A stretch of DNA of 64,000 bases. It comes from Candidatus Kapaibacterium sp. Lineage in GTDB: Bacteria; Bacteroidota; Ignavibacteria; Kapaibacteriales; HRBIN21. Position 1 is the stretch's first letter. Every line of letters begins with the position of its first letter. The stretch spans positions 153,180 to 217,179 of the forward strand of contig JANXCT010000002.1 in assembly GCA_025059875.1 (NCBI GenBank). Direction: 5' to 3'. A program made the position numbers and the translations under genes. Below, piece by piece: positions 11,076 through 51,251 of this stretch. The notes under the pieces were generated by a model. The model was not told where the DNA came from. It ran no database searches and saw only the letters and a program-made list of their open reading frames with translations.

Positions 11076-11106
11076 GGTTTACGAAGCGACGCCAGCCTCA
11101 GCTTTC

Positions 11107-12573: not shown

Positions 12574-12582
12574 CTCACGAGC

Positions 12583-15455: not shown

Positions 15456-16725
15456 CGCGCTGGCTCACGCCTCTCTCTCGCACTCCCAGAGCCACGAGCA
15501 CCTGCTCAAGGATTGCGTCGTATGAAAACCGTGCAGCGTTCTCATCCGCAGCAGCTTGGCGCCACTGACAGCGCTGAGCTTCAGAAAGGGGTGCGATCGT
15601 CTGGACTGCCGTAGCAAGTGTCTCTTCAAAGCCGTGCGGCTCTTCCCAGTACCATCCCGTGCGACCTTCCTGGAGAAGGTGAAGGAGCGAAGCACGACGA
15701 GGTAACACAAGAGGAAGCCCTACTCCTAAGGACTCATTTGCTGAGATAGCCGGCTGCATCCACACACCGAGATCTGCTGCAGCCGCTAGCCGACGCGTCT
15801 GCTCCGGTGGCAAGAATGGATAGACCGCAAAGTGCTCGGGTATCGGCTGACGTTGGATCTGCTCCAGTAGCTCCCTCTGGTACCCATCCCCCAATCCACC
15901 AACCAGCACATACCGCACTGGAAGCCCGACTCGCTGCATCTTACCAACGGCAGCGATGATACGCTCAAGACCTTTTCGCGGGACAACTCGTGTGACAGTG
16001 AGGATGAGCACCTCTTCAGGCCTCACTCCAAGTTGCTCTCGAGTCTGCTGCCGCTCCAACGCGGAGAAGAAGAAGAGCTGAGGGTCATAGCCGAGCGCTA
16101 GCACTCGTGCCTTTGCCTCCAGAAGTTCTAGCTCCTCCCTATTAGCACAGCATTGCTGCAACCATTCCAGCGTTGCCGGCATATTGCAGACGAGTAACTC
16201 AGCACGGCGAATAGCACGACGATAGAACGGACGCTTCACGAGCTCAAACCCTCGATCCTGTAGCCAGCTAACAACTCGCGCCGACAATGAGTGCCGACGG
16301 CGGTACTCATGCAACTCGCTGAAGAAACACGCGATTGGCACCTGCCTCAGCTCTGCAGCCGTCAGAATTGGTACACCGAAGAGCTTTCCCACCCCCAACA
16401 GCAGAATCGCGTCAGGGCGCCACTCCACAACAGCAGAGACAACCCCACGGCTCAGCACTGCCGAGCGAAACCGAAAGGCAACCGGCAGACGCACGAGCTC
16501 GTAGCCATCCTCGCATATCCTGCCTACGGGATAAGGCCGGCGCCGTAGCCGCCGAGCACTGGAGGAGACTGCCGTGGAAGTAACTACCCGTACCGCAATC
16601 CCTTTACGGACCAAGGTCCGAGCAATCCAGACCTCCTGATACCCCACCTCGGGCATGAAGTGGCCACATACAACGGCAATTCGCATACCAAAAGCTCTCG
16701 GTAGCCTTTCGCTCCCGATGCTCAC
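15439..16725 (-). CDS. Glycosyltransferase family 4 (GT-B)
   Basis: GT-B fold motifs (MRIAVVCGHF..., C-terminal ...GVGLPLV...). Likely start at MRIAVV (16686). Confidence 0.65.
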   Translation of the reverse strand: MSIGSERLPRAFGMRIAVVCGHFMPEVGYQEVWIARTLVRKGIAVRVVTSTAVSSSARRLRRRPYPVGRICEDGYELVRLPVAFRFRSAVLSRGVVSAVVEWRPDAILLLGVGKLFGVPILTAAELRQVPIACFFSELHEYRRRHSLSARVVSWLQDRGFELVKRPFYRRAIRRAELLVCNMPATLEWLQQCCANREELELLEAKARVLALGYDPQLFFFSALERQQTREQLGVRPEEVLILTVTRVVPRKGLERIIAAVGKMQRVGLPVRYVLVGGLGDGYQRELLEQIQRQPIPEHFAVYPFLPPEQTRRLAAAADLGVWMQPAISANESLGVGLPLVLPRRASLLHLLQEGRTGWYWEEPHGFEETLATAVQTIAPLSEAQRCQWRQAAADENAARFSYDAILEQVLVALGVRERGVSQRDGKAA

Positions 16726-19352: not shown

Positions 19353-19376
19353 CCGTTCCCCTTGCCACCGTTCTAG

Positions 19377-19450
19377 CGCGCCCGGCAGGACTCGAACCCG
19401 CAACCCCCAGATCCGAAGTCTGGTGCTCTCTCCAATTGAGCTACGGGCGC
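19377..19450 (-). tRNA. tRNA-Arg (anticodon TCG)
   Basis: Reverse complement folds as a cloverleaf: acceptor GCGCCCG/CGGGCGC, D-arm TAGCTCAATTGGAGAGAGC, anticodon loop CTTCGGA (U33, anticodon TCG), T-arm GGTTCGAGTCC. Confidence 0.8.
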
Positions 19451-19462
19451 AGCAGTGCAAAT

Positions 19463-34933: not shown

Positions 34934-37900
34934 ATGACAAAATGCGGGCTCTCCTGCGGAATACTTGCTGCAGCACTGTCCCTACAGGCAATTGCTGAAG
35001 AGTTACGGCTTCACTGGGAATGGCGCACCCCGCAGGAGGCTCTGTTGACGATCTCTGTTCCAATCCCACTCCTGCTCCAAGCACCTGAAGGTGTACGGCA
35101 AGCAGCTCCGAACTCCCGTTGGGCTTTTCCACTCCCTGACTGGTCCCTCTACGGATTTGCCATCCCTATGGAGCTACCTCTCCAGACTACACTCCGGAGC
35201 GACATCGTGCAGTGGGAGGAACTACCGCTGCCAGCACCACTCCAGCGACGTACGTGCCAAGAATGCTCTCCTGGAGAGCCGCTTGTAGCGCAGCTTGCGC
35301 CCATCGGCTCCTCAGGGGACCGACCCGTTGTAGCGCTGCGCCTCTTGCCGTATCACCCAGTAGAGCATGGCACTCGGCTCCGTGTCGCACGTCAGCTCCG
35401 GCTCCACTTGCGCCTTCCCCAGCCTTCGACAGTTCGTGAGTCCCTAGTTCTGCTGGATTTCAATCCCTCCCGATTAGCATCTCCCCTAGCAGACGTACCC
35501 CTTTCCACCTCAGAACAGCAACTCCCTACAGCTCCCGACGGCTTTCAATACAAGCTCATCGTTCGCCGCCAGGGACTCGTTCGAGTCACAGCTCGACAAC
35601 TGCTCGATGCTGGGCTACCGCTCGCAGCTATCCCTGTAGCGACGCTCCGCCTCTGGAACCGTGGACGTGAAATTCCGCTGTACGTTTACGATCGTAACAA
35701 CAATGGCTACCTCGATGACTATCCCCCAGACCCCGACTACATTGCCTTCTTTGGTGAGCCCAATCGGCTGAACTTCCGTAACCGTGACCGCGATATGTAC
35801 CTTGACCCCGAAACGGAAGAGAATGTCTATGCCCTCACTTGGGGAGGGGGAAATGGGAAGCGGATGGTTGAGGAGTCCGGCGATATCCGCATCCCTGACC
35901 CGCGACGAGCTATAGACCTACGCGGGAAGAGTTTCCGGAGTACTGTCATCGTAGAGCACAACCGAGTCGAGGAACGCTTCGGAGCCGTAGAGGCACAAGA
36001 CCGTGATCTCCTGCTCCCCAGCTTCCAAGGGGACCAACTCTTTTGGGCCCGAGTACCGGCGAACACTAGTGTGACCCTTCCCGTCCCCTTACCCGCACCG
36101 GCGCTCCTGGCAGAGGACTCTGTACGGGTAGAGGTGATGCTATGTGGTGCCATAGCACGTCCCTTGCCGTGCCCTATTCCTGAGCATACTGCGGAGATCT
36201 ACCTCAACCGTCGGCGAATTCTCCGAGCTTCTTGGTCGGGAGCCCGTCCGTTCACTGTTCAGTCCCCTCAACACCAGATTGCTCCCATCCCAGCTTCTGT
36301 TCTCGCTGAAGCCGACAGCAGCACCATTACGGTTGCCAACATCTTTGACTGTCCCCAAGCCAGCGACCGAATTCCCAGCTTCTACGTCAACTGGGTGCGG
36401 ATCGAGTATCCACGGCTCTACGTTGCGACGAACGATGAGCTCTGGTTCTGTACTCCTCCCGGCTCCCCTCCAGGGGTTTACACCTTCGCCCTCGAGGGCT
36501 TTCAAACACCAAATGTCCTGCTCTTCCGCGCCGGCATCTCGCGCATCCTCAACTACAGTCTCGAACGGGTCCGACTGCCTTGGGGGGCCGTGCGATACAC
36601 CATCCGCTTCCAGACTTACGTTGCCTCACCGGAAGAGCTCTTCTATGCTATCGCCGTAGACAGCGTTGCCGGTCCTGCGCGAATTGTCCGTGACCTTCCC
36701 TCCAGCCTATCCCATCCTGACAACGCCGCTGATTACATGATCATCACGCACAAAGGCCTCTGGGATCGCCGTCAGCCACAGGCGAATTCACCAGACCATC
36801 CCATTCAGCGACTCCTCCGCTTGCGGCAGCAGCAGGGGCTGCGCACGATGGTTGTGGACGTTGACGACATCTACGACGAGTTCAATGACGGTATCGCCTC
36901 ACGGGATGCCATTCACCGCTTCCTGCGATTTGCATGGTTGCGGTGGCGAGTCCCTCCGCGGTATATTGTGCTTGTTGGAAATGCCACAGCCATCCCACCG
37001 CAACTATGGCAGACACGCCGCTGGGGAATGACCCCTACGGACTACACGTACGGTTGCGTGGAAGGCACCTACCAAACTCCCACAGGCGCCCTGACGGACG
37101 ATCCGATCCCTGAAATGGCCGTTGGGCGTATTCCTGCAGAATCATTGGCTGATCTGGAAGCCGTAGTGGCAAAGCTGTGGGAGATGGAGGAAGGATACGC
37201 CACGACGTACTTCCAGCCCCGTGCCCTCTTGGTAGCTGGCATCAACGGCTTCATTCACCAGACAGAACTCTTGGCAACGCGGCTCCCCTTGGGACTGTCG
37301 CAGCGCCGCCTCTACGTCCAGCCTGGCACTCCGTACACTGGACATACAGCCGAGCTCCTCCAACTGTTTGCCGATGGAGCTGCTGTCGTCAACTTCCTCG
37401 GCCACGGTGGTGGGGGTATCTGGGAAGATGCCGGGCTACTGCAGGATGAAGATGTTGAGCTCTTCTCCAACCGTGGTCGCTACCCCATTGTCTCCAGTCT
37501 TACGTGCTTCACTGGCGCCTTTGAGCAGCAAGCGGGACGCCGCGGTCTACTGAGCAGCCTCGTTGTAACACCGGGACGTGGGGCCGTCGCCGCTTGGGGG
37601 AACTCCGGCTATGGTTGGCTGGAGAATAGCTTCTTGCTGTCGCTGGCGCTCCTGGAAGCTGTCACAGCCCCCACAGGACGTCTCCAACGTCTTGGAGATG
37701 CTTTCCGTGCTGGCAAAGCCCTCTATGCCGCCCGTGCCTATGGGCTACAGAACGAGATCGTGCTCTCTATGCTCCTGCAGGCAACCCTTATCGGCGATCC
37801 AGCCCAGCTCTTGCGGCTCCCAACGGACACAGTTGAGCTTCGGCTGAGCCGTACAGCCGCTACCGCTGGCGAGGTGCTCACAGTGGTCACCTCTCTGCCG

Positions 37901-39895
37901 TTTTCCTCAGGAAGCGCCCGAGTTCTCCTTGCCGATGAGTATGGCAACGACTTGCCCGGAGGCGAGCGGGTTATCTCCCTCAATGGCCCACGGCTTAGCT
38001 TCTCGGTAACAGTCCCTGCTAACTATATCGGCACGCGCCTCTCCATTCGCCTCTACGCAGTAGAGTCTAACCGGCAACGTGCGGTCATGGGAGGGGCACA
38101 CGTCAGCACAGGTGCTGTTATTCTGGGGGAAATCCAGACCTCACCTTCACCGCCAGTAGCCGGTCAGCCTCTGGCATTGCGCATTCCCATCCGCAGCCGT
38201 ACTGCTATCCAGAGTGTGACCGCCACTGTCAACATTGCCTTCCCTGACGGTACTACAAGCTCTTTGGGACCTATGCCCTGTCAACTCGTTAGCGCCGAGG
38301 TGTACCAGACCGAGCCTCCCATCTCGGCAGCGCTCATACGGGCTGGGGCAGAGATTAGGGCAGTGTTTACGGTCCTTCTGAGCACAGGGCAGAGCATTAG
38401 CTCTCCTATGGCCATCTTCTCGGTCCCAGGGATTGCGGACCCAGCGGTTGTCCAGCCCTTAGCAGGAGACAGCTTACGCACGGCCACCCCATGGCTGCGC
38501 TGTGTCCCAACAGCACAGGGAGCACATCTTCAGGTCCACCTCTACAACTGGCGGGAAACCCCTGCAGGCAACGTCTTGGTCCGTCTGTGGCGCTCCATGC
38601 CGAACGGTCCCCCGCAACTACTGGCTGAGCAGCGTGTGGACATCCCCGGCAACGGCAGCACGGACTGGCTCTTGCGTCCACCCAGAGCTCTACAGAAGGC
38701 CTATCTCCTCTGCGAAGTCGCTAGCGATAGTCTCTCTACCGGGGGTGATCGGTTAGCGAGCAACAATCGGGCTGGAGATAGTCTTCTACTGGGCTGCTTT
38801 GCACTCTTGCCGTCCGTTGGTACTACCGACAATGGCCTGCAGCACTCCCCTGTTGGGATTGAGGGGATAGCGACTGTTGCCGTCCTCCCTGCTCAAGCTC
38901 CGGCGGCTACCGCGCTCCTGTGGATTGAGACCCTCCCCTCCACTCGGACTGTACAGCCGAACGTCCATCTCGTACGTCTTGCCGATAGTTCTGCCGCTGT
39001 GGCAGTGACGGTCTCTTCTCCAACCACGGTCGTAGCAACATTGCAGCTGTGGTACCTGCCACAGGACACCGCGCTCGTCCATGGCCTACCGGCCATCTAC
39101 CGCAAACATAGCCGCTTAGACCTCTGGGAACGCCTCCCCACCCAGCAGATTGGTCCTGGCGTTGTGCAAGCTTCCGTAGTACTTCCTGGCATCTTCGCCG
39201 TTGCGACAAGCTCAGACCGGCGTCCTCCCCAAGTTCGGATAACAGCGGAAGGACGAGCTCTCCCGGCTCGGACTGTCCTCTCGGCGAATCCCCGAATCAG
39301 CATCGTTGGCATAGATGAAAATGGGGTCTCCACCGACACCTCTACCATCCGCTTGACACTGAACGGACAACCCGTACCCGTCCAGCAGCTCAGCATCTCA
39401 GACAGTGCCCAGACACCGACTGCCACCAGCATCAGCTACCGTCCTCAGCTCCAGAGTGGGACCCATATCTTGTGTGCCACGCTCGTAGACTGCAACGGTA
39501 ATCCCAGCGAACGCACCTGCATCCAGATGGAAGTCTCCACACAGCTCGACCTGCGGTTGCTAGGGACCTATCCGAATCCTTTCCGCGAGGAGATGTTCAT
39601 CGCCTACGAGCTGCTGGGGACAAGCAGCGTCGACGAGGTAGAGCTCCGACTATACACTGCTTCGGGACGCTGCATCCGCCGGATGGTCTTCCCAACGACT
39701 TCCCCCGCGGAGGCCTTCGGATTCTTACGCGGCGGGACCGGAATCCCGACAATGCCAGGATACCATGAAATCTGGTGGGACGGCATGGACAACGAAGGCC
39801 GTCCTGTAGCAAATGGGATCTACTTCTACCGACTCCGTGTCCGGTCGGGTGACACCATTGTGGAGCGACGCGGCAGTGTGGCGCGGGTTCGCTAA
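34934..39895 (+). CDS. porU: Type IX secretion system sortase PorU (gingipain-like C25 peptidase), unusually long (1653 aa)
   Basis: Signal peptide. Peptidase C25 core (ADYMIITHKGLW, VGNATAIPP, TDYTYGCVEG, catalytic His in NFLGHGGGGIWED, Cys in SLTCFTGAF). Multiple Ig/FN3-like beta domains. C-terminal FlgD-Ig/T9SS-like domain (GTYPNPFREE...GIYFYRLRV). Immediately followed by porV. Confidence 0.75.
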   Translation: MTKCGLSCGILAAALSLQAIAEELRLHWEWRTPQEALLTISVPIPLLLQAPEGVRQAAPNSRWAFPLPDWSLYGFAIPMELPLQTTLRSDIVQWEELPLPAPLQRRTCQECSPGEPLVAQLAPIGSSGDRPVVALRLLPYHPVEHGTRLRVARQLRLHLRLPQPSTVRESLVLLDFNPSRLASPLADVPLSTSEQQLPTAPDGFQYKLIVRRQGLVRVTARQLLDAGLPLAAIPVATLRLWNRGREIPLYVYDRNNNGYLDDYPPDPDYIAFFGEPNRLNFRNRDRDMYLDPETEENVYALTWGGGNGKRMVEESGDIRIPDPRRAIDLRGKSFRSTVIVEHNRVEERFGAVEAQDRDLLLPSFQGDQLFWARVPANTSVTLPVPLPAPALLAEDSVRVEVMLCGAIARPLPCPIPEHTAEIYLNRRRILRASWSGARPFTVQSPQHQIAPIPASVLAEADSSTITVANIFDCPQASDRIPSFYVNWVRIEYPRLYVATNDELWFCTPPGSPPGVYTFALEGFQTPNVLLFRAGISRILNYSLERVRLPWGAVRYTIRFQTYVASPEELFYAIAVDSVAGPARIVRDLPSSLSHPDNAADYMIITHKGLWDRRQPQANSPDHPIQRLLRLRQQQGLRTMVVDVDDIYDEFNDGIASRDAIHRFLRFAWLRWRVPPRYIVLVGNATAIPPQLWQTRRWGMTPTDYTYGCVEGTYQTPTGALTDDPIPEMAVGRIPAESLADLEAVVAKLWEMEEGYATTYFQPRALLVAGINGFIHQTELLATRLPLGLSQRRLYVQPGTPYTGHTAELLQLFADGAAVVNFLGHGGGGIWEDAGLLQDEDVELFSNRGRYPIVSSLTCFTGAFEQQAGRRGLLSSLVVTPGRGAVAAWGNSGYGWLENSFLLSLALLEAVTAPTGRLQRLGDAFRAGKALYAARAYGLQNEIVLSMLLQATLIGDPAQLLRLPTDTVELRLSRTAATAGEVLTVVTSLPFSSGSARVLLADEYGNDLPGGERVISLNGPRLSFSVTVPANYIGTRLSIRLYAVESNRQRAVMGGAHVSTGAVILGEIQTSPSPPVAGQPLALRIPIRSRTAIQSVTATVNIAFPDGTTSSLGPMPCQLVSAEVYQTEPPISAALIRAGAEIRAVFTVLLSTGQSISSPMAIFSVPGIADPAVVQPLAGDSLRTATPWLRCVPTAQGAHLQVHLYNWRETPAGNVLVRLWRSMPNGPPQLLAEQRVDIPGNGSTDWLLRPPRALQKAYLLCEVASDSLSTGGDRLASNNRAGDSLLLGCFALLPSVGTTDNGLQHSPVGIEGIATVAVLPAQAPAATALLWIETLPSTRTVQPNVHLVRLADSSAAVAVTVSSPTTVVATLQLWYLPQDTALVHGLPAIYRKHSRLDLWERLPTQQIGPGVVQASVVLPGIFAVATSSDRRPPQVRITAEGRALPARTVLSANPRISIVGIDENGVSTDTSTIRLTLNGQPVPVQQLSISDSAQTPTATSISYRPQLQSGTHILCATLVDCNGNPSERTCIQMEVSTQLDLRLLGTYPNPFREEMFIAYELLGTSSVDEVELRLYTASGRCIRRMVFPTTSPAEAFGFLRGGTGIPTMPGYHEIWWDGMDNEGRPVANGIYFYRLRVRSGDTIVERRGSVARVR

Positions 39896-40919
39896 GTGTA
39901 TCGTAGTCCTCGGGGCCAGCATCCAACTATGGGCCGAAGAGGAGCGGTATGCCGCCGCCTTCCTCGAAATCCCCTTGGGAGCCCGGGCCCTCGGCCTCGG
40001 TACAGCCTTCACTGCTATTGCAGACGATGCCTGGGGATTCTACTGGAATCCAGCAGGCACAGCACTGACACCCCCAACAGTGCTCGTAGCCGGGATGTAC
40101 AGCTCGCAGTACGGGGCAATTGGATCACCACTGGCCCACTTCTTCCACACTGGACTGCTCCTGCCTATCTCCGGACTACGGGTTGGGGTCCACTGGGTCC
40201 GGTTCACCGCCCCTGACTTACGGGCGTATCCCGACCTGACGCGTGTCCTCTCTCCCCAGGAGCGGGAGGAGCTTGTACGGCGTGCGAGTGCTGGGGACTT
40301 CATCCCGAATGCGGATGAGGCCATCTGGATCGTGCTCGCCCGACTCCTCGTGGTACCAGTGGACTTCGGTTGGCTACGCTTCCAAGTGCCGGTCGAGTTC
40401 CCCGTAGGACTGAACATTAAGCTCCTCCACGAGCAGATTGCCGAACACCGTGCCTCGGGCATCGGGGTGGACGTTGGCGCTATGCTGCGCGTCAACCTCA
40501 AGGACATTGCCTTTGACGAGCGCTGGCCACGCCTCTCGCTTGGGGTCAATGTGCGAGACCTTGGTGGAACACGGCTGCTTTGGACCACCCAGCGACCGCA
40601 CCGTATCCCTCCCTCCGTCTCCTGGGGAGTGGCATTGACACAGCCCTTGGAGGCATGGAAACTAGAACTGACGCTGGGGTATAGCCGTGACGAGCGCTAC
40701 GGAGGGCATAACAACTACGGCATTGAAGTCCTCTATCGCCGTAGTTTTGCCCTCCGGGCCGGCACGTACCGCTCAGTGCTGACCCTTGGGGCCGGGGTTG
40801 ACGCCGGCGTTCTGACAGCTGACTACGGCTTCCTGGCAGACTCAGACACACAACTGGGGAATGTCCACCGCCTGGGCATATGTCTCCGTTTAGAGCCTCT
40901 GCTGAAGCGATTGCAATGA
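39876..40919 (+). CDS. porV: Type IX secretion system outer-membrane protein PorV (LptO)
   Basis: PorV family signature right after the signal peptide (FLEIPLGARALGLGTAFTAIADDAWGFYWNPAG). Beta-barrel amphipathic strands to the end. Start placed at GTG 39876 (20-nt overlap with porU); the in-frame ATG at 39813 would overlap porU by 83 nt. Confidence 0.75.
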   Translation: MWRGFAKCIVVLGASIQLWAEEERYAAAFLEIPLGARALGLGTAFTAIADDAWGFYWNPAGTALTPPTVLVAGMYSSQYGAIGSPLAHFFHTGLLLPISGLRVGVHWVRFTAPDLRAYPDLTRVLSPQEREELVRRASAGDFIPNADEAIWIVLARLLVVPVDFGWLRFQVPVEFPVGLNIKLLHEQIAEHRASGIGVDVGAMLRVNLKDIAFDERWPRLSLGVNVRDLGGTRLLWTTQRPHRIPPSVSWGVALTQPLEAWKLELTLGYSRDERYGGHNNYGIEVLYRRSFALRAGTYRSVLTLGAGVDAGVLTADYGFLADSDTQLGNVHRLGICLRLEPLLKRLQ

Positions 40920-41677
40920 GCCTCGCCGGCATTGTGCTCGGATGGCTCGTGCTGATAGGGTGTAACGATGCTACTACGCTCCCTGAACCGATGTTGCCCG
41001 CTCCGCAGTGGGTGCCCCGTAGTCCCGATACAGCAGCCTTTGAGACAGGGATTCGTCCTTGGCCGGAAGCAGCTGCCGATGGTGTCGGTGGCATTCGGTT
41101 AGAATGGTACGCCCTTAGTCCCTTGGAGGTCGGCGGCTACCGCATCTACCGGAGCGACACGACAGATTCCCTCGGCCGCCCCATCCGATTTACGGAGCTG
41201 GTCACGATAGAGTACGGCACCACGAGCGAAGACACAGCGTACGTAGACCGCACCGTCGCCCATTGGCGCACGTACTACTACCGCGTCCATGCCTTAGACC
41301 GCTCTCCGCAACGCCGCGAGGGGCCTCCTTCCGAAGTCGTCCGCTTCACGCTGGAACCTCCGCCGATTGCCTTGGCACCGAGTGGCGAGGTGCATCTTGA
41401 CTCGGCCGTCTTTCGATGGAGTGGGAACGTCGGTTACATTGTGCTCCGAGTTTTCGAGGTCGACAGCCTCAACCCTGACATCCTACTCCGCCCAGTATGG
41501 GTGTTCGCAGGAACACCACAGGACTACTCCCGACCGCAGATTCGCTACAACCAGGACGGTCGAGCTCTCCCCCTACAGCCGGGGAAGCTCTACCGCTGGC
41601 GTATCAGCCGCATCACGCCGGGACGCCCGGACCGCGGCTCCAGCTCTATATGGCGCACATTCTGGGTTCGCCAATGA
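40916..41677 (+). CDS. Lipoprotein with fibronectin type III-like domain (hypothetical)
   Basis: Lipobox LVLIGC. FN3-like segment (IRLEWYALSPLEVGGYRIYRSDT...YYYRVHALD) and a second beta-sandwich repeat. Start at internal Met MSLAGIV. Overlaps porV stop and the next gene (ATGA). Confidence 0.45.
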   Translation: MSLAGIVLGWLVLIGCNDATTLPEPMLPAPQWVPRSPDTAAFETGIRPWPEAAADGVGGIRLEWYALSPLEVGGYRIYRSDTTDSLGRPIRFTELVTIEYGTTSEDTAYVDRTVAHWRTYYYRVHALDRSPQRREGPPSEVVRFTLEPPPIALAPSGEVHLDSAVFRWSGNVGYIVLRVFEVDSLNPDILLRPVWVFAGTPQDYSRPQIRYNQDGRALPLQPGKLYRWRISRITPGRPDRGSSSIWRTFWVRQ

Positions 41678-42225
41678 GGGCAATAGGAATCCTCCAGCCC
41701 CTGATAACCCTGCTACTGTCGTCATCAGTGCTCGTTGCTCAGCAACTGCGTGATCCCTTCGGTGCGCAGCGCGATCCCACGCAGCAACGCCCATTACCAT
41801 ACTCCGGCCTGGGTGGCGCAGCCTACTACGACCTCAGCTTCGGTACAGGCCTGACGATCCCAGTCAATCTCTGGGGCTATGTCCGGGTTCCAGGGCGCTA
41901 CATCGTACCGAGCTCCACCACCCTCGTCCAGCTCATCTCTTTCGGCGGGGGACCAACGGAGTACGCTCGGCTAACAGATGTTCGGATCATCCGTGACGTC
42001 CGCGTTGACACTACTATCGTCGAGCGAGTCCTTGTGTACAACTTGGAGCTTTACCAGCGCACGGGCGACCCTAGCCAGAATCCGCTACTCTATCCTGGCG
42101 ATACGGTCATCGTCCCAGGCGGGGCATTGAGCACGTTGGAGGTCGTCGTAGGGGTTGTGCGCGACGTTCTGCTTATCCTCCAGGCTGCCGTCACCCTTGT
42201 GCTCTTCTTCCGAGGCGGGCGATGA
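41674..42225 (+). CDS. Polysaccharide export (Wza-like) periplasmic protein with SLBB domain
   Basis: Signal peptide, then the Poly_export/SLBB pattern (NLWGYVRVPGRYIVPSSTTLVQLISFGGGPTEYA...YPGDTVIVP). Start MRAIGIL at 41674, inside the longer track ORF 41497-42225. Confidence 0.55.
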   Translation: MRAIGILQPLITLLLSSSVLVAQQLRDPFGAQRDPTQQRPLPYSGLGGAAYYDLSFGTGLTIPVNLWGYVRVPGRYIVPSSTTLVQLISFGGGPTEYARLTDVRIIRDVRVDTTIVERVLVYNLELYQRTGDPSQNPLLYPGDTVIVPGGALSTLEVVVGVVRDVLLILQAAVTLVLFFRGGR

Positions 42226-43439
42226 GCCGGTGGGGACCTCTCCTCGTTGCCCTCCCTGTGCTGCTAAGCACCTGCAGCCCGCCAGGAAGCTTGGAAGAAC
42301 GCCAGCTTAGCTTCTGGCACTTCTGGAGCGAACCCTCGCATCGCGCTGCCTTGCAGGAACTCATTGCAGAGTTCGAGCAGCGCTACCGCTGCCGCGTGGA
42401 GCTGACAGAGCTGACGTGGAACGAGGGCAAGGCAAAGCTCTTGGCGGCATTCCACGCTGGTAAACCCCCAGACATTGTGGAGCTAGGTTCCGACTGGGTA
42501 GCACAGTTCTCCAGCGCTGGTGTCCTCTGGGAGCTGCCGCCGGACAGCATAGAGTTGGAGCGGTTCGTCCCATTCGCTCATCCTCCATGTTTCTGGAACG
42601 GCAAGCTCTACGCCGTCCCATGGATTGTGGACACCCGGGTCCTCTTCCTCAATCGCACAGCCCTCGAGAATGCAGGCCTTCCTAGCACCCCACCCAAGAC
42701 ATGGCAGGAGCTCCTGGAGCGAGCCCAACAGCTCCATCGGCCGCCGGAAATCTATGGCTGTGGCGTCAACGGAGCCGATCCCCATCGGCTCTACAAGAAG
42801 GTGCTGCCACTGGTCTGGAGCTTCGGAGGCGACATTGTGGACACGACTGGGGCGGTGACCTTCACTCAGCCAGCGGTCATCGCTGCCGTACGCTTCTACA
42901 CTCGGCTCGCCCGCGTGGGGCTCATAGAGACGCAGCGCCAGCTCGATGATGCCTTCTTCCAGGGCAAGCTGGGATTTTGGATCTCTGGAGCCTGGTTGGC
43001 AGAGAAGCTGCGGCAGCAGCCACCGTCGTGGAGCTATTCGCTGGCGCCTCTACCGGGCAATGCTCCAACGAGCGTGGGGGTATCATTCGCCGGCGGTGAG
43101 TACCTCGCCATTAGCGCCCGCTCGCCACGCAAAGCGTTGGCACTCGAACTTGTCCGCTTCCTGACGGACGGAGCCCAGTCAGTCCGATTCTGCCGAAAGG
43201 TCATAGAAGCAGGATTCCCTGCCGACCGTCGTTACCTCCAGGATTCGGCACTCCTCAGCATCCCCTACCGTCGTGTCTTTGCTGAACAGCTCCAACGCGC
43301 CCGAATGACACCCGTCCACCCTCGGTGGCTGGACATTGAAGCCGCCTTTGAGAACGCTGTCGTAGAAGCACTCTACGGTATCCGCTCCCCCGAGGCTGCC
43401 CTCCAGCAAGCCTCCCAAGACCTTGTCTCCCAGCAGTAG
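42222..43439 (+). CDS. ABC transporter substrate-binding lipoprotein (family-1 extracellular solute-binding protein, sugar/oligosaccharide type)
   Basis: Lipobox LLSTCS. SBP_bac_1-like pattern (LSFWHFWSEP...ELIAEFEQRY...ELTWNEGKAKLLAAFHAGKPPDIVELGSDWVAQFSSAG). ~400 aa. ATGA overlap with the upstream gene. Confidence 0.65.
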   Translation: MSRWGPLLVALPVLLSTCSPPGSLEERQLSFWHFWSEPSHRAALQELIAEFEQRYRCRVELTELTWNEGKAKLLAAFHAGKPPDIVELGSDWVAQFSSAGVLWELPPDSIELERFVPFAHPPCFWNGKLYAVPWIVDTRVLFLNRTALENAGLPSTPPKTWQELLERAQQLHRPPEIYGCGVNGADPHRLYKKVLPLVWSFGGDIVDTTGAVTFTQPAVIAAVRFYTRLARVGLIETQRQLDDAFFQGKLGFWISGAWLAEKLRQQPPSWSYSLAPLPGNAPTSVGVSFAGGEYLAISARSPRKALALELVRFLTDGAQSVRFCRKVIEAGFPADRRYLQDSALLSIPYRRVFAEQLQRARMTPVHPRWLDIEAAFENAVVEALYGIRSPEAALQQASQDLVSQQ

Positions 43440-46995: not shown

Positions 46996-48054
46996 TCACA
47001 TGTCCGTTGACAGCCGGAGCCGAACAATGCGTCCATTGGCCGCATCGGCAATGTAGATGGTCCTGTTGTACACTGCCACTCCCGATGGAGCTCGAAGTCG
47101 AAATACCCCCTCCCCACGATACCCGCGAACGAGCATCCCCGACGGCGAGAGCACGTAGAGGCTATCGGTCTCCACATCCACAACGTATACCGATCCCGCA
47201 GCGTCGAAGGCAACCCCTTCAGGCGCAGTGAACCGCCCAGGCTGCAGTACTGTGGGGGTCTGTCGCGTAGGGTCGAACTTCTGCGTCCATCCAGCCCCTT
47301 CGCCAGTAACGTACGTCAGCCACTGCACGCGGTACTGCATCGCCTCGCCTCGCTGACAGAAGACTAACTCCCGCCCGTTAGCAGAGACGGCTAATCCGCT
47401 GAGCTGTTCGATAGCGTTGAGGGCAATCCCCACCGGTCGAAGTACAGGGATCGGCGAACGCAGCCGGTCATCTGCCCCGATGTGCAGTACGGCCTCGTCT
47501 GGGTCCACGGGAGAGCTGTTGTACGGGCCTGTCCGGGCAACGAGGTAGCTGTTGTCTGGCAAGACAGCGATGCCACTGAAGCGTCGCTGTGGCCGCTCCG
47601 GTTCTGCATAAGCCACTAAGACCCGTGCTCGCTGGATGTCGTGTCGCGCTTCGCGGAGCTTGATCCGAAAGACCGCTCCAATTGTCACCCGACCCCTCGG
47701 CAGGACTGTGTCGAGCTCCCCGCAGACGAGCAGGTCAAAATGCCCATCCTGTGCCAACGCTACAGGTCGTCGGATAGGCGGAGAGACCCCCACAAGACGC
47801 CCTGCCAAGTCCAACATCACCACCCGATCGTTGTCCGTATCGGCCACGTAGATGAAAGGTTCGCGTCCAACCAGAACATCTGACGGGTTACGGAAGCCCA
47901 TCCACGCAGGGTCCAAGGGGACATAGACTGTGTCTCCTATTCTGGCGGTATCCAGGGGCGGCACTGTCGGCAACGAAGGGGGGTCTACGAGACACCCCCA
48001 GTTCCCAACAGACACCATCACCACCAAGGGCCACCACCGTAGCAACCGTGTCAT
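46996..48054 (-). CDS. NHL-repeat (beta-propeller) lipoprotein
   Basis: Lipobox-like VSVGNWGC. Repeated NHL-type segments (PSDVLVGREPFIYVADTDNDRVVMLD; PEGVAFDAAGSVYVVDVETDSLYVL; APSGVAVYNRTIYIADAANGRIVRL). Confidence 0.55.
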   Translation of the reverse strand: MTRLLRWWPLVVMVSVGNWGCLVDPPSLPTVPPLDTARIGDTVYVPLDPAWMGFRNPSDVLVGREPFIYVADTDNDRVVMLDLAGRLVGVSPPIRRPVALAQDGHFDLLVCGELDTVLPRGRVTIGAVFRIKLREARHDIQRARVLVAYAEPERPQRRFSGIAVLPDNSYLVARTGPYNSSPVDPDEAVLHIGADDRLRSPIPVLRPVGIALNAIEQLSGLAVSANGRELVFCQRGEAMQYRVQWLTYVTGEGAGWTQKFDPTRQTPTVLQPGRFTAPEGVAFDAAGSVYVVDVETDSLYVLSPSGMLVRGYRGEGVFRLRAPSGVAVYNRTIYIADAANGRIVRLRLSTDM

Positions 48055-49058
48055 GGCAAGCGGAAAGGCTCGATACTCAGCCCCAACCGATAGACCAAGC
48101 CAAGCGGGGCCCGCGTGGCGAGAGCATAATCAAGCTGCCACATGACTGGAGGCACTGGTAACCGAAACCCAATCCCAGCTCCCCACCACTCTGCCGCTCG
48201 AGCTCGCAGCCCCGCACGCACCATGAGCTCGGCAGGGAAGGCGGCCGAGAAGCGCACTACGTACTCGCTGGCAACGGCATAACTCTCGACGTCGTCACTG
48301 GGATGCTCCAGCGAGAGCATCCATGTCCAGCGCTGGTCCTCTCGCTGGATGAGCTCTCCGGCCACCCCGATCCGAAAGACCGTTGGTGGAGCAAACTCAC
48401 GGAAATCGGCTGAATGGTTACCCACAGGCTCTACCGCAGCAATGCTCCCACGGGCTCGTAGAGGGAGCCCGAACTGCGAGACCGCAACTGCGAGCCGCAG
48501 GCTCCCAATTCCTGTCCAGTACAGCGTCCCAGCGTCCCAGACGAGTCCTTCCAACGTAGCCTCTGCCCACTGTTCCCGAACATACCGCACGGTAACGCCA
48601 GCGGCAAACTGGTCCGTGAACCGATGTGCGTAGGCAATCCCAGCATTCCAGTGGCCGAAGCGGAACTGTCGCCCTGTGCCGTAAGGACGGTATTCAGTCG
48701 TTTCCTCAATCGGTGGCAATCCAAGTGCAGAAGCCGTCAGCACAACCATCCCCGCCGACCACGGACGGAAGCCCACCGCTAAGGAGGAATGGATGATGTC
48801 TGCAACGAAGCGCTGAAATACTACGCCTACGGCATACGGAGCTGCGAGCTCCACGGCCGTCGCCGGGTTAGGGCTGACGTTGATTCCATCAGGCAGTGCC
48901 GTCGTTGCTCCCACCAGCGCTGCACTCCGAGCACTCCCCAGCAGTCGCAGGGCCACAGCCGTGGAGATCCCGACACGCTCTTCACCAAAGCGCGGGAAGA
49001 CCTGCCCTACTGCGATGGCAGCTAGTAACGATGTCAAGCAGCACGCCCAGAACCACAT
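48051..49058 (-). CDS. PorV/PorQ-family outer-membrane beta-barrel protein (putative PorQ-like)
   Basis: Signal peptide, then a motif resembling the PorV/PorQ N-terminal signature (LRLLGSARSAALVGATTALPDGINVSPNPA). Alternating amphipathic beta-strands throughout. Compare with the bona fide PorV at 39876. Confidence 0.45.
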   Translation of the reverse strand: MWFWACCLTSLLAAIAVGQVFPRFGEERVGISTAVALRLLGSARSAALVGATTALPDGINVSPNPATAVELAAPYAVGVVFQRFVADIIHSSLAVGFRPWSAGMVVLTASALGLPPIEETTEYRPYGTGRQFRFGHWNAGIAYAHRFTDQFAAGVTVRYVREQWAEATLEGLVWDAGTLYWTGIGSLRLAVAVSQFGLPLRARGSIAAVEPVGNHSADFREFAPPTVFRIGVAGELIQREDQRWTWMLSLEHPSDDVESYAVASEYVVRFSAAFPAELMVRAGLRARAAEWWGAGIGFRLPVPPVMWQLDYALATRAPLGLVYRLGLSIEPFRLP

Positions 49059-49822
49059 CAGTGCCGCGCTACCCCTCCGTCAACATTGATGGTCTGGCCT
49101 GTGATAATTCCAGAAGCCGGCATCGCCAAAAAGACCACGACGTTGGCAATATCCTCCGGCTCGTCAGCTCGATGGACCGCCTGCGTTGGCAGGATATGCT
49201 GGAGGATCGTCTGCGAAAGTGGAGCGGCATTAGGCCGCTGCGTTGCTGTCAATCCGACGGTAATAGCGTTGACCGTAATCCCATACCGGCCTACCTCCGC
49301 TGCCAGTGAGCGGACGAAGCCGATGATGCCCATCTTGGCCGTTACGTAGTGGACCAAATACGGCGTCCCCAGCCAGACCGTGTCAGAAGAGAGGGCAATG
49401 ATGCGCCCAAAGCCATGCTCCTTCATCAAGGGCAGCACAGCCTTGACGGTGAGGAAGAGGCTATCGAGCGTCACCCCCAGCATTCGCTTCCACTGCTGGA
49501 AGGTCAGTAGCTCAAAGGGCTCCTCCTCGTAAATGCCGACGTTGTGGACCAAGATATCCACCCTCCCCCAGCGAGAGCGGATTGTCTCCACGACTCGTTC
49601 AACGTCCGATGGCTGCGTGAGGTCTGCCTGAACGGTGAGGACCTCTCCCCCTATGCGGTGGACTGCTTCGGCAGTCTCGCTCGCGTCTGCAATATCGGCA
49701 ATAGCGATACGTGCTCCTTCTTCGGCCAGGCGCTCACAAAAGGCACGTCCGTTTCCGATCGCCGCTCCCGTAACTAACGCAACGCGTCCCTGGAGCCCCT
49801 GCTCAAAGCGGTGGATTTGCAT
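49058..49822 (-). CDS. SDR-family oxidoreductase (3-oxoacyl reductase-like; candidate 3-ketosphinganine-type reductase by context)
   Basis: TGAAIGNG Rossmann motif, NVG..., catalytic S...Y...K (YVTAKMG). 254 aa. Its start overlaps the alpha-oxoamine synthase stop. Confidence 0.75.
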
Positions 49823-51251
49823 CCGCTCGTTGTACTTGTTGGCCTGCAGCCGACCGTCGGTCTACACCAGCAGACGCAATCCCCTCTGCGATGCGCTCAC
49901 GCGCCTCAGGTGTCAGCAGACCGAGTTCCTTCCCCACGCGTTCGAACACTTCTAAGATGCGATCCAGGTGCTCGTCCTCGTGGGTTGCCATGTAGCTTGT
50001 CCGCATCATGCTCATCGTGGGAGGGACACCCGGAGGGATGAATGTGTTGACGTAGACGCCAGCATCGAAGAGCTTACGCCAGAAGAGCAGCGCTGTCTGG
50101 ACGTCCCCGACGATGACTGGTACGATAGCTGTCTGCCCGTCAAGGGTATGGAATCCTAGCTCCTTGAACCCCTGCCGCATCTTGTTGGCATTCCGGATGA
50201 GCTTGTCCACCAACTCGGGCTGCTCCTCTAAGATCTCCAATGCAGCTAATGCCGCAGCACATGAAGCCGGCGTCGGGCTAGCACTGAAGATGAGAGCCGC
50301 TGAGTGATGCTTCAGGTAGTTGATGACCCGCTCCGGACCCGCCACGAAGCCGCCGAGCGAAGCAAACGTCTTGGAGAACGTGCCCATCGTCAGGTCAGTC
50401 TGCTCCGTCAGCCCAAACATGCTCGCCGTCCCTCGTCCCCCCACGCCAATGACCCCAATAGCGTGGGCATCATCGATGAGGACACGAGCACCGTAGCGGT
50501 GAGCAATTTCTACAAGCCGTGGCAAATCCACGATTTCTCCCGTGACAGAGAAGACCCCGTCGGAGACCACTAACTTCGGAGCCGACTCCGGAAGGCCCGC
50601 TAAGATGCGCTCTAGATCCTCCATGTCGTTGTGGCGGTAGCGGATGAACTCCGCCCCCATGCCCCTGGCAATGAGAGCACCGGTGACGATAGAGGCATGG
50701 TTCTCGCGATCGCTGATGACGTAGTCCCCCTTCTGCACTAAGCCAGCAATTGTTCCCAGCGCTGTCTGGAAACCAGTGCTGAAGAGCAGGACTGCCTCGT
50801 AACCCAGGAAGCGCGCGAGTCGTTCTTCCAGCTCTACGTGGAGGTCCAGCGTGCCCGTTAGGTACCGCGATCCTGAGCAGCCGGTGCCATACTTACGGAT
50901 GGCCGCCATCGCGGCTTCCTTGACCTTGGGGTGAGTGGTCAATCCCAGGTAGTTGTTCGAACCCGCCATGATGACTTTGCGGCCCCCAACCGTCACTACA
51001 GGACCCTCGTTCTCCTGAATCGGGTGGAAGTAGGGATATAAGCCCATAGCTTTGACTTCGTCCGCACGCGTAAAGGCGTAGCACCGTTCGAACAGGTCCA
51101 CTTCTTCACCGTCTCTGTTGTAGTACTGTCCCGCGCAAGACGGGCACAAATATCTGAAAAAGTCAGCGGAGGCATCGCACGGGCCCAATTCACCGCTTGG
51201 AGACAGCAGCAGAGGTACGGAGGAAGAAGCGGAGGAGGAGGTCACGGCCAC
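49803..51251 (-). CDS. Alpha-oxoamine synthase family PLP enzyme (serine palmitoyltransferase / Cfa / KBL-like)
   Basis: GSNNYLGLT motif; PLP region ([10 protein letters not shown]...[13 protein letters not shown] with Schiff-base Lys). ~400-aa conserved core. The track ORF has a 60-70-aa Cys-containing N-terminal extension, so the true start may be internal. Followed by the SDR. Confidence 0.7.

What the first reader, a model, noticed from the sequence alone, without database searches (positions are those of the whole stretch)
34934..43439. Oversized PorU and an extended porU-porV operon with FN3 lipoprotein, Wza-like SLBB protein and a solute-binding lipoprotein
PorU here is 1653 aa, about 500 aa longer than the Porphyromonas prototype, with extra N-terminal beta-sandwich domains before the C25 core. 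porV overlaps its end. Three further genes follow with ATGA-type overlaps: FN3 lipoprotein, SLBB/Poly_export domain protein, family-1 solute-binding lipoprotein. Linking the T9SS sortase/shuttle pair translationally to polysaccharide-export-like and sugar-binding components suggests co-ordination of cargo processing with glycan attachment or export (compare A-LPS anchoring of T9SS cargo). Such an operon extension is not a described norm.
Basis: partly seen in the sequence, partly recalled or inferred. Interest (0 to 1): 0.5.

Follow-up and report, generated by a model that had tools for sequence, protein, structure and literature searches.

The report
PorU-like/PorV-like operon with Wza-like partner
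A surface-protein "sortase" gene and its outer-membrane barrel partner are, in two little-studied classes of Bacteroidota-group bacteria, always followed by a miniature relative of the Wza polysaccharide-export protein. This is a conserved, apparently undescribed link between protein sorting and glycan-export machinery, and its mechanism is still only inferred.

Summary
The five co-directional, overlapping genes are real. They are a 1653-aa C25 peptidase, a PorV/PorQ-family barrel, a two-FN3 lipoprotein, a 183-aa SLBB plus C-terminal-helix protein, and a sugar-type solute-binding (SBP) lipoprotein.

The peptidase's only solved relative is P. gingivalis PorU. Its catalytic His/Cys and a type IX secretion (T9SS) C-terminal domain (CTD) are conserved. 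The barrel model's best structural match is PorV. [quoted passage not shown] Across 37 species-level genomes (Kapabacteria and Kryptoniota) and 11 metagenome contigs:
- The barrel–SLBB pair is invariant.
- The upstream partner is a full C25 in 28 species and a CTD-only lipoprotein in 5.
- The FN3 gene is present in 23 of 37.
- The SBP is present in 8 of 37, on the Kapabacteria branch only.

More distant SLBB homologues sit beside Wzc in classical polysaccharide loci. More distant C25–barrel pairs lack SLBB.

The operon extension is therefore conserved and seems undescribed. Two things remain open. PorU and PorV equivalog thresholds are not met, and a second PorV/PorQ barrel lies 4.6 kb away. 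Coupling to a glycan is inference only. I classify it as a new variant of a known kind, with moderate interest.

The parts
34934..39895 (+). PorU-like C25 cysteine peptidase, 1653 aa, with a signal peptide. About 200 poorly conserved N-terminal residues are followed by a PorU-type N-terminal region, the C25 core, a roughly 600-aa post-core region and a CTD.
   Evidence: Pfam Peptidase_C25 covers residues 601-957, E 1e-65. NCBIfam PorU scores 167.7 bits (cutoff 420) and PorU2 151.3 (cutoff 450). The only PDB sequence hit is P. gingivalis PorU 6za2, E 1.5e-10. Nine full-length orthologues at 39-95% identity were found.
36734..37804 (+). C25 catalytic core (residues 601-957), with catalytic His824 (37403-37405) and Cys858 (37505-37507).
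   Evidence: The His in GHGG and the Cys in SLTC align with the PorU GHGG and TATC motifs. Both residues are invariant in 25 of 25 full-length orthologues.
39593..39892 (+). C-terminal T9SS-type sorting domain (CTD, residues ~1554-1653). It is the best-conserved part of the protein.
   Evidence: Scanned alone, the last 114 aa give FlgD_ig 31.6 bits (cutoff 27), CHU_C 19 and Por_Secre_tail 18. The region is collinear with the PorU CTD. Column conservation is 0.76 in the last 50 residues. The same domain is all that remains in the 'CTD-only' lipoproteins of L008 and L015-L018, L021.
39876..40919 (+). PorV/PorQ-family outer-membrane beta-barrel, 347 aa, with a signal peptide. Its start overlaps the C25 gene by 20 nt.
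   Evidence: NCBIfam PorV_fam 85.4 bits (cutoff 90), PorV2 51, PorQ 36, PorV 29. The AlphaFold2 model has pLDDT 93.7. The best PDB fold match is F. johnsoniae PorV 8gl6_F (E 7.9e-10, TM 0.67), followed by FadL/TodX.
40916..41677 (+). Lipoprotein of 253 aa with two FN3-like domains (residues ~50-145 and ~150-250). ATGA overlap with the barrel gene.
   Evidence: The lipobox Cys16 is invariant across 44 family members. The family profile matches FN3 structures for both halves (3mpc E 1.6e-7; 2ic2 E 3.5e-3). The exhaustive search gave 1089 hits, many of them FN3-like repeats inside giant proteins. There is no Pfam hit for the single sequence.
41674..42225 (+). Minimal Wza/OPX-like protein of 183 aa. 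It has a signal peptide, a disordered linker, one SLBB domain (41869-42114) and a 31-residue C-terminal helix (42124-42216). ATGA overlap with the FN3 gene.
   Evidence: Pfam SLBB 28.6 bits (cutoff 27) and SLBB_2 26.7. The family profile's best PDB hits are OPX/Wza proteins. The AlphaFold2 model shows a beta-grasp plus helix 151-181. The top 10 fold hits are all Wza/OPX, with rmsd 2-3 A over about 90 residues. No Poly_export domain is detected.
42222..43439 (+). Carbohydrate-type family-1 solute-binding lipoprotein, 405 aa. No transporter genes are nearby. ATGA overlap with the SLBB gene.
   Evidence: SBP_bac_1 E 2.9e-33 and SBP_bac_8 E 8.8e-27. The best solved relatives are sugar/oligosaccharide SBPs (3uor E 7e-30, 5ysb). 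Flanking genes are housekeeping, with no permease or ATPase. The gene is present after SLBB in only 8 of 37 species, plus L002, L004, L077 and L080.

Best explanation
This is a conserved outer-membrane sorting module of the T9SS attachment-complex type, specific to Kapabacteria and Kryptoniota.

Shown:
- A PorU-like C25 peptidase has an intact His/Cys dyad and carries its own T9SS-type C-terminal domain (CTD).
- It is co-transcribed and translationally coupled with a PorV/PorQ-family barrel.
- In this clade the barrel gene is always followed by a miniature Wza-type protein made of one SLBB domain and a C-terminal helix. Its homologues elsewhere sit beside Wzc in polysaccharide loci.
- Often a two-FN3 lipoprotein lies between the barrel and SLBB genes. 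On the Kapabacteria branch an orphan sugar-binding lipoprotein follows.

Inferred:
- The peptidase is exported by the T9SS and stays docked on the barrel through its uncleaved CTD, as PorU does on PorV.
- The SLBB-helix protein oligomerises next to the barrel, as Wza does.
- That oligomer delivers or positions a glycan or polysaccharide acceptor, so that cargo CTDs removed by the peptidase are replaced by that glycan.
- The FN3 and sugar-binding lipoproteins help hold the glycan. This would be a functional counterpart of PorZ/PorQ presenting A-LPS to PorU in P. gingivalis.
For: Part identities:
- C25 core E 1e-65.
- The sole PDB sequence hit is PorU, with a collinear core and CTD.
- His824 and Cys858 are invariant in 25 of 25 orthologues, and the CTD is the most conserved segment.
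- The CTD alone scores FlgD_ig 31.6 bits, with weaker CHU_C and Por_Secre_tail hits.
- The barrel model's best structural match is PorV.
- The SLBB model matches only Wza/OPX structures.
- The 253-aa lipoprotein is FN3-like in both halves, and the SBP is sugar-type.

Coupling: a 20-nt overlap and three ATGA overlaps join the genes.

Conservation:
- Among 37 species-level genomes carrying the A-type SLBB, the barrel is adjacent in 36 of 36 informative cases.
- The upstream partner is a full C25 in 28 species and a CTD-only lipoprotein in 5.
- Flanking genes differ between lineages: secA, IscS/NifU or ParAB in Kryptoniota, NUDIX and HdrD-like in the window.
- Anchoring independently on the barrel in metagenomes gives Lip and SLBB in 11 of 11 loci with enough downstream DNA.

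Links to polysaccharide export and to the T9SS:
- 25 of 27 more distant SLBB homologues lie within 5 kb of a Wzc-type co-polymerase, alongside glycosyltransferases and a flippase.
- The window encodes a cargo protein with a T9SS type A sorting domain above its curated cutoff.
- Established knowledge: PorU is anchored on PorV and exchanges the cargo CTD for A-LPS supplied by PorZ (PMC12365241).
- FN3 and SBP genes occur only where the full peptidase is present, never in the CTD-only variant.
Against: - Equivalog thresholds for PorU, PorV, PorU2 and PorV2 are all missed by a wide margin.
- A second PorV/PorQ-family barrel lies in the same window, so this pair may be a paralogous sorter rather than the main one.
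- No glycan-synthesis, flippase or Wzc gene lies in or next to the module in any of roughly 50 loci.
- The barrel-SLBB pair persists where the peptidase is reduced to its CTD. The SLBB protein therefore cannot depend on sortase chemistry.
- The SBP is absent from most species, and the FN3 gene from about 40%.
- The C-terminal helix has not been shown to span the outer membrane. It has only 15 uncharged residues after an E/R/D-containing half.
- There is no expression or interaction evidence.
Confidence: 0.45

Rival explanations
1. The core is a polysaccharide-export pair, not a protein sorter. The SLBB-helix protein is simply the lineage's OPX, and it works with the PorV/PorQ-like barrel as an outer-membrane exit, as Myxococcus class-3 OPX proteins work with beta-barrel porins. 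The C25 protein is a surface protease that merely uses the barrel as its anchor. The Wzc and synthesis genes are encoded elsewhere.
For: - The barrel-SLBB adjacency is the only invariant feature, and it survives loss of the peptidase domain.
- Homologues of the SLBB protein function in Wzc loci.
- No genome in the scan showed both an A-type and a B-type copy, so the A-type could be the only OPX.
- OPX/beta-barrel pairing is documented (PMC9603273).
- An EPS-like glycosyltransferase cluster lies 20 kb upstream in the window.
Against: - The SLBB protein keeps its own C-terminal helix, which is a class-1-like feature and one that does not need a porin (PMC9603273).
- PorV/FadL-type 14-strand barrels are not known polysaccharide conduits, and the known OPX partners are 16-18-strand PgaA/BcsC/AlgE/GfcD-type barrels.
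- The conserved upstream partner is always a CTD-bearing protein, which points to CTD-barrel docking.
- No PCP, flippase or GT lies within 10 kb in 37 of 37 A-type loci.
Confidence: 0.2
2. The SLBB-helix protein has been exapted as a purely structural subunit of the sorting complex, for example a periplasmic ring or tether for the barrel, with no glycan role. The FN3 and SBP genes are lineage-specific passengers.
For: - SLBB is invariant, whereas the sugar-binding gene is rare and the FN3 gene is dispensable.
- No glycan genes lie nearby.
- The PES/Poly_export domain that marks all OPX classes is missing.
Against: - The A-type and Wzc-associated B-type proteins share the same architecture and conserved motifs, including the RD-containing C-terminal helix.
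- The SBP is translationally coupled to SLBB (ATGA) and recurs in a lineage whose barrel is only 36% identical (L080).
- The SBP belongs to carbohydrate-binding clusters.
Confidence: 0.2
3. The adjacency has no functional meaning and reflects inherited synteny of unrelated envelope genes.
For: Only gene order and domain identity are available. There are no expression or interaction data.
Against: - The order is kept across two classes, with barrel identity down to about 30% and completely different flanking genes.
- Start and stop codons overlap.
- The sister clade of C25-barrel pairs lacks SLBB, while the sister SLBB clade sits with Wzc. That is a clean switch rather than drift.
Confidence: 0.05

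Closest known systems
PorU-PorV arm of the P. gingivalis / F. johnsoniae T9SS attachment complex
   Same: - A C25 peptidase with a His/Cys dyad and a retained C-terminal sorting domain is encoded directly upstream of a PorV/PorQ-family barrel.
- PorU is the only solved sequence relative of the peptidase.
- PorV is the best structural match of the barrel.
   Different: - The protein is about 500 aa longer, with about 195 extra residues at the N-terminus and about 320 between the core and the CTD.
- Scores are far below the PorU and PorV equivalog cutoffs.
- The operon continues into FN3, SLBB and SBP genes, which I did not find described for porUV.
- In some species the peptidase is reduced to a CTD-only lipoprotein.
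Wza / OPX proteins (class 1 Wza of E. coli; class 3 WzaB of M. xanthus)
   Same: - The SLBB beta-grasp superposes on Wza and WzaB (rmsd 2-3 A, 23-30% identity).
- The C-terminal long helix is in the position of Wza_C.
- Close family members are encoded beside Wzc-type PCPs, GTs and flippases.
   Different: - The Poly_export/PES domain that defines all three OPX classes is absent (PMC9603273).
- There is only one SLBB domain, and the protein is 183 aa against a median of about 378 (class 1) or 256 (class 3).
- It is not a lipoprotein.
- Here it is encoded with a PorV-like barrel rather than with Wzc.
NCBIfam 'PorU2' (NF052324) / 'PorV2' (NF052325) putative type IX sorting pair
   Same: - All 33 barrel orthologues match PorV2 at least as well as any other specific model (best E 6.7e-33).
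- The peptidase aligns over residues 206-957 to the PorU2 N-terminal model.
   Different: - Scores are 51 vs cutoff 325 and 151 vs cutoff 450, so the pair is not a member.
- I found no paper describing that pair.
PorZ-PorQ arm, which presents A-LPS to PorU
   Same: In the favoured model the FN3, SLBB and SBP proteins would play the glycan-supplying role that PorZ plays (PMC12365241).
   Different: - There is no sequence or fold relationship between them.
- A separate candidate PorQ-like barrel with an NHL beta-propeller lipoprotein lies at 46996-49058.
MalE-type cluster of carbohydrate ABC-transporter binding proteins
   Same: The SBP_bac_1 fold family and sugar-type relatives match.
   Different: - It is an orphan, with no permease or ATPase genes.
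- It is a lipoprotein translationally coupled to an OPX-like gene.

Membership tests
Peptidase family C25 | Pfam PF01364 above gathering score | tested here: met
   222.9 bits against a cutoff of 23, over residues 601-957.
Peptidase family C25 | Catalytic His/Cys dyad | tested here: met
   His824 and Cys858 align to the PorU GHGG and TATC motifs. Both are invariant in 25 of 25 orthologues.
T9SS sortase PorU (NF033707 equivalog) | Score at or above the curated cutoff of 420 bits | tested here: not met
   167.7 bits in 3 stretches.
T9SS sortase PorU | Own C-terminal T9SS sorting domain, retained | tested here: inconclusive
   The isolated C-terminus scores FlgD_ig 31.6 bits (cutoff 27). The T9SS-specific models are below cutoff (CHU_C 19, Por_Secre_tail 18). 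The region is collinear with the PorU CTD. Whether the domain is retained or cleaved is not testable here.
T9SS sortase PorU | Encoded next to porV | tested here: met
   A PorV/PorQ-family barrel gene overlaps its 3' end. This holds in 28 species.
T9SS sortase PorU | CTD cleavage and transpeptidation of cargo to a glycan | not testable with these tools
   This needs biochemistry or mass spectrometry of cargo C-termini.
T9SS PorV (NF033710 equivalog) | Score at or above the cutoff of 250 bits | tested here: not met
   29.4 bits. The best E among the 33 orthologues is 2.6e-13.
PorV/PorQ family (NF033709 subfamily model) | Score at or above the cutoff of 90 bits | tested here: inconclusive
   85.4-85.8 bits, E about 4e-24, which is just under the cutoff. 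Sister proteins score 104-131 bits.
PorV/PorQ family | FadL-like outer-membrane barrel fold closest to PorV | tested here: met
   The model has pLDDT 93.7. The top PDB match is PorV 8gl6_F (E 7.9e-10, TM 0.67), followed by TodX/FadL.
PorU2 / PorV2 (NF052324 / NF052325) | Scores at or above the cutoffs of 450 / 325 bits | tested here: not met
   151.3 and 51.3 bits.
OPX (Wza) proteins | Poly_export (PES) domain, the marker used for all OPX classes | tested here: not met
   No Pfam Poly_export hit. Only about 35 disordered residues precede the SLBB domain. Class definitions come from PMC9603273.
OPX (Wza) proteins | SLBB domain of Wza type | tested here: met
   Pfam SLBB 28.6 bits against 27. 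The profile hits OPX structures. The top 10 fold hits are all Wza/OPX.
OPX (Wza) proteins | C-terminal OM-spanning helix (Wza_C) forming an oligomeric pore | tested here: inconclusive
   A helix is predicted at residues 151-181. It has a charged N-terminal half and 15 uncharged residues. There is no Wza_C Pfam hit, and oligomerisation was not tested.
OPX (Wza) proteins | Encoded with a PCP (Wzc/Wzz) and glycan-assembly genes | tested here: not met
   0 of 37 A-type loci have Wzc within 10 kb, against 25 of 27 B-type homologues within 5 kb.
Fibronectin type III domain | Significant match to FN3 structures or models | tested here: met
   The family profile matches FN3 structures 3mpc (E 1.6e-7), titin, and 2ic2 for the second half. 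The single sequence gives no Pfam hit at E <= 0.05.
ABC-transporter solute-binding protein family 1 | SBP_bac_1 above cutoff | tested here: met
   116.6 bits against a cutoff of 26.
ABC-transporter solute-binding protein family 1 | Cognate permease and ATPase genes | tested here: not met
   None were found within 10 kb in the window or in L002, L004 and L011-L014.

The most novel reading that the evidence does not exclude
The PorV-like barrel, a CTD-bearing partner and an oligomeric SLBB-helix pore form a previously unknown outer-membrane complex. In it an exported polysaccharide, rather than LPS, is the acceptor onto which a PorU-like sortase transfers T9SS cargo. In other words, protein sorting and Wza-type glycan export are physically fused in Kapabacteria and Kryptoniota.
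Probability: 0.2. Interest if true: 0.75.

Novelty: new variant of a known kind. Interest (0 to 1): 0.5.

Why it matters
How T9SS cargo is anchored has been worked out only for P. gingivalis, where PorU exchanges the cargo's C-terminal domain (CTD) for A-LPS delivered by PorZ. What happens in the many T9SS-bearing lineages outside Bacteroidia is open. A sortase-like/shuttle-like pair that is always encoded with a Wza-derived protein provides a specific candidate for an alternative glycan-supply route. On one branch a sugar-binding lipoprotein is encoded as well.

The finding also exposes two things of wider use:
- A minimal OPX form (one SLBB plus a helix, no Poly_export domain) that surveys keyed on Poly_export would not detect.
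- A natural 'CTD-only' variant, which suggests that CTD-barrel docking, rather than proteolysis, is the conserved interaction.

Tried and rejected
I used the barrel alignment instead.
- Neighbour-joining tree of the SLBB domain, to test for a single recruitment event: A-type sequences did not form a clean clade. The domain is too short for the tree to be trusted, so no claim is made.
- Rosetta-stone search for FN3-lipoprotein domains fused to C25 or the barrel in species that lack the gene: no hit, even at E 10.
- An HMM of the C25-type CTD found no other such domain in the window. The window's cargo protein carries a standard type A domain instead.
- Promoter and terminator scans were at or below shuffle expectation and uninformative.
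- I considered whether the ~414-aa gene after SLBB in Kryptoniota is a diverged SBP. It is a class-V aminotransferase (IscS-like) followed by NifU.
- I considered whether the ~1020-aa gene upstream of C25 in Kryptoniota is a T9SS component. It is SecA.
- More distant PorV/PorQ proteins (L074-L076) were checked for SLBB neighbours, and none was found.
- I could not determine whether a canonical porU/porV exists elsewhere in these genomes.
- Literature searches for PorU2/PorV2, T9SS with SLBB, PorU with Wza, and Kapabacteria or Kryptonia with T9SS found nothing describing this operon.

Full report
**1. What is in the window**

Five + strand genes occupy 34934-43439. An independent public gene call on an identical contig gives the same five products: 1653, 347, 253, 183 and 405 aa. 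The junctions were read directly:
- The barrel gene starts at GTG 39876, 20 nt inside the C25 gene, whose TAA stop is at 39893-39895.
- The next three junctions are ATGA overlaps at 40916, 41674 and 42222.

The module is bounded by housekeeping genes. A NUDIX gene lies 62 nt upstream. A convergent histidine phosphatase gene and an HdrD-like gene lie downstream. The simple sigma-70-type scan showed no internal promoter-like or terminator-like signals above shuffle expectation.

The window is 98% identical at the SLBB protein to MAG 'Chlorobiota bacterium DT_Bin_21'. Its close relatives are named Candidatus Kapabacteria or bacterium HR21.

**2. The parts**

*(a) C25 protein*
- The Peptidase_C25 core spans residues 601-957 (E 1e-65).
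- Its only sequence relative in the PDB is P. gingivalis PorU (6za2). Query residues 569-982 align to PorU 375-807. A weak second stretch, 1409-1638, aligns to PorU 916-1139 and includes the sorting-domain motifs.
- This alignment places about 195 extra residues before the core and about 320 between the core and the C-terminal domain (CTD).
- His824 and Cys858 align with the PorU catalytic motifs and are invariant in all 25 full-length orthologues. The last ~50 residues are the most conserved part, and the first 200 the least.
- Scanned alone, the last 114 residues reach FlgD_ig 31.6 bits (cutoff 27), with sub-threshold CHU_C and Por_Secre_tail hits.
- NCBIfam PorU (168 vs 420 bits) and PorU2 (151 vs 450) are both far below cutoff.

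*(b) Barrel*
- PorV/PorQ family model: 85.4 bits against a cutoff of 90. PorV2 scores 51, PorQ 36 and PorV 29.
- The AlphaFold2 model is confident (pLDDT 93.7).
- Its best solved match is F. johnsoniae PorV (E 7.9e-10, TM 0.67), ahead of TodX and FadL.
- All 33 orthologues score PorV2 ≈ PorV_fam > PorQ > PorV. None reaches an equivalog cutoff.

*(c) 253-aa protein*
- The lipobox Cys is invariant in 44 family members.
- The family profile matches FN3 structures in both halves.
- The exhaustive search found 1089 relatives. Many are FN3-like repeats in giant proteins, and about 60 of the top 150 are full-length lipoproteins of 230-280 aa.

*(d) 183-aa protein*
- SLBB is just above the Pfam cutoff.
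- The model shows a beta-grasp plus a 31-residue C-terminal helix.
- The ten best PDB matches are all Wza/OPX proteins.
- There is no Poly_export domain, although that domain is the marker of all three OPX classes (PMC9603273).

*(e) 405-aa protein*
- It is a sugar-type SBP_bac_1 lipoprotein.
- No transporter genes lie nearby.

**3. Conservation**

*Genome scan anchored on SLBB.* A scan of one genome per species with the SLBB alignment returned 64 loci. tblastn and HMM panels and ORF clustering split them into two groups.

| Feature | Type A (37 species: Kapabacteria, Kryptoniota, unnamed Bacteroidota MAGs) | Type B (27 species: Ignavibacteria, Chitinophagales and others) |
|---|---|---|
| PorV-like barrel adjacent | 36 of 36 informative loci | 0 of 27 |
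| Upstream partner of the barrel | Full C25 in 28, CTD-only lipoprotein in 5, uninformative in 4 | No C25 |
| FN3 lipoprotein | 23 of 37 | not found |
| SBP | 8 of 37, all on the Kapabacteria branch | not found |
| Wzc within range | 0 of 37 (within 10 kb) | 25 of 27 (within 5 kb), typically with glycosyltransferases and a flippase |

*Flanking genes.* These differ by lineage. In Kryptoniota they are secA upstream and IscS/NifU or P-II/ParA/ParB downstream. The module boundaries are therefore C25 to SLBB, plus the SBP where it is present.

*Metagenome scan anchored on the barrel.*
- All 11 loci whose barrel scores 265 bits or more and which have enough downstream DNA carry the FN3 lipoprotein and SLBB. 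One of them, L080, has a barrel only 36% identical to the window's and also carries the SBP.
- Barrels scoring 190-227 bits sit beside a C25 gene but without SLBB.
- Lower-scoring barrels are mostly alone.
- Still more distant PorV/PorQ proteins have no SLBB neighbour.

The extension is thus a clade-specific addition to an older C25-barrel pair.

**4. The CTD-only variant**

In L008/L009, L015-L018 and L021 the ~1650-aa gene is replaced, at the same position, by a lipoprotein of 145-195 aa. It consists of a lipobox, a short linker and the CTD-like domain. The barrel and SLBB genes remain, but the FN3 and SBP genes are absent.

This suggests that CTD-barrel docking and barrel-SLBB association are the conserved interactions. 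It also suggests that the FN3 and SBP proteins are tied to the peptidase function.

**5. T9SS context and paralogy**

The window encodes a 912-aa SBBP/Ig protein with a type A sorting domain above its curated cutoff. T9SS-type secretion is therefore expected in this organism.

A second PorV/PorQ-family barrel lies at 48051-49058 on the minus strand. It scores 91.1 bits against a cutoff of 90, with PorQ above PorV, and is only 24% identical to the first barrel. It is coupled to an NHL beta-propeller lipoprotein.

I could not scan whole genomes. Whether the C25-adjacent pair is the organism's principal PorU/PorV or a paralogous sorter therefore remains open.

**6. Interpretation**

The best-supported reading is an attachment-complex-like module. 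A PorU-like peptidase is docked by its CTD on a PorV/PorQ-type barrel, as established for PorU-PorV (PMC12365241). A Wza-derived SLBB-helix subunit is an obligate third partner.

That this third partner supplies or positions a glycan acceptor is inference. It rests on three observations: the OPX ancestry of the SLBB protein, the sugar-binding lipoprotein on one branch, and the P. gingivalis precedent of CTD-for-glycan exchange.

The rivals are:
- An OPX plus barrel polysaccharide exit, with the peptidase as an accessory.
- A purely structural exaptation of the SLBB protein.
- Meaningless synteny.

The evidence for and against each is given in the Rival explanations section of this report.

**7. 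Novelty**

Full-text searches found no paper linking type IX secretion to SLBB or Wza-like proteins in this way. They also found none describing PorU2/PorV2 or the T9SS of Kapabacteria or Kryptonia.

I rate the finding a new variant of a known kind. The parts are known families. The conserved combination, the Poly_export-less minimal OPX and the CTD-only variant appear undescribed.

Interest is moderate. The association is robust and suggests a testable alternative glycan-supply route for T9SS cargo anchoring. However, the function is inferred and the organisms are mostly uncultivated.

Noticed in passing
window 48051-49058 (-) and 46996-48054 (-): A second PorV/PorQ-family barrel (335 aa) scores NF033709 91.1 bits against a cutoff of 90, with PorQ above PorV. 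It is only 24% identical to the C25-adjacent barrel. Its stop overlaps the start of a 352-aa NHL-repeat beta-propeller lipoprotein that has no CTD. This may be a PorQ/PorZ-like arm. The pair is conserved at the same place in L011, L014 and L047.
   Followed up: partly
window 16722-19460 (-): A 912-aa SBBP beta-propeller/Ig protein ends in a T9SS type A sorting domain (TIGR04183, 31.2 bits against a cutoff of 23). It is a likely T9SS cargo and evidence that the organism uses type IX secretion.
   Followed up: partly
window 9102-16725 (-): An EPS-like gene cluster lies directly beside the cargo gene. It contains an XrtA/PEP-CTERM-type asparagine-synthase amidotransferase, two GT4 glycosyltransferases and two unannotatable proteins of 488 and 569 aa. 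No Wzc/PCP was found anywhere in the window.
   Followed up: no
L008 8349-8825; L015, L016, L017, L018, L021 (same position upstream of the barrel): Here the 1650-aa C25 gene is replaced by a 145-195-aa lipoprotein consisting only of a lipobox, a linker and a CTD-like domain. The FN3 and SBP genes are absent from these loci.
   Followed up: partly
L005, L006, L046, L049-L073: Short SLBB-plus-helix proteins (~170-185 aa) without a Poly_export domain sit beside Wzc-type co-polymerases, GTs and flippases in Ignavibacteria, Chitinophagales and other Bacteroidota. This appears to be a minimal OPX form that surveys keyed on Poly_export would not detect.
   Followed up: partly
L100 1-8771: Two tandem C25 genes (499 and 555 bits to the C25 HMM, each with a CTD) precede a PorV-like barrel that has no SLBB gene.
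   Followed up: no
L023 2998-7817: The C25 gene is split into two ORFs of 773 and 796 aa in one Candidatus Kryptonium MAG. This could be a frameshift, a pseudogene or an assembly error.
   Followed up: no
L023-L044, L048 (upstream of C25): secA lies immediately upstream of the C25 gene in 18 Kryptoniota-type loci. This may be simple synteny of housekeeping genes.
   Followed up: partly
window 49058-51251 (-): A short-chain dehydrogenase and a class I/II aminotransferase (482 aa) lie directly upstream of the second barrel on the same strand, overlapping each other by 20 nt. Their role is unknown.
   Followed up: no
P0062: A 242-aa database protein combines a FlgD_ig hit with 68% identity to the first half of the barrel. 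It is probably a gene call running from the C25 CTD into the barrel gene.
   Followed up: no
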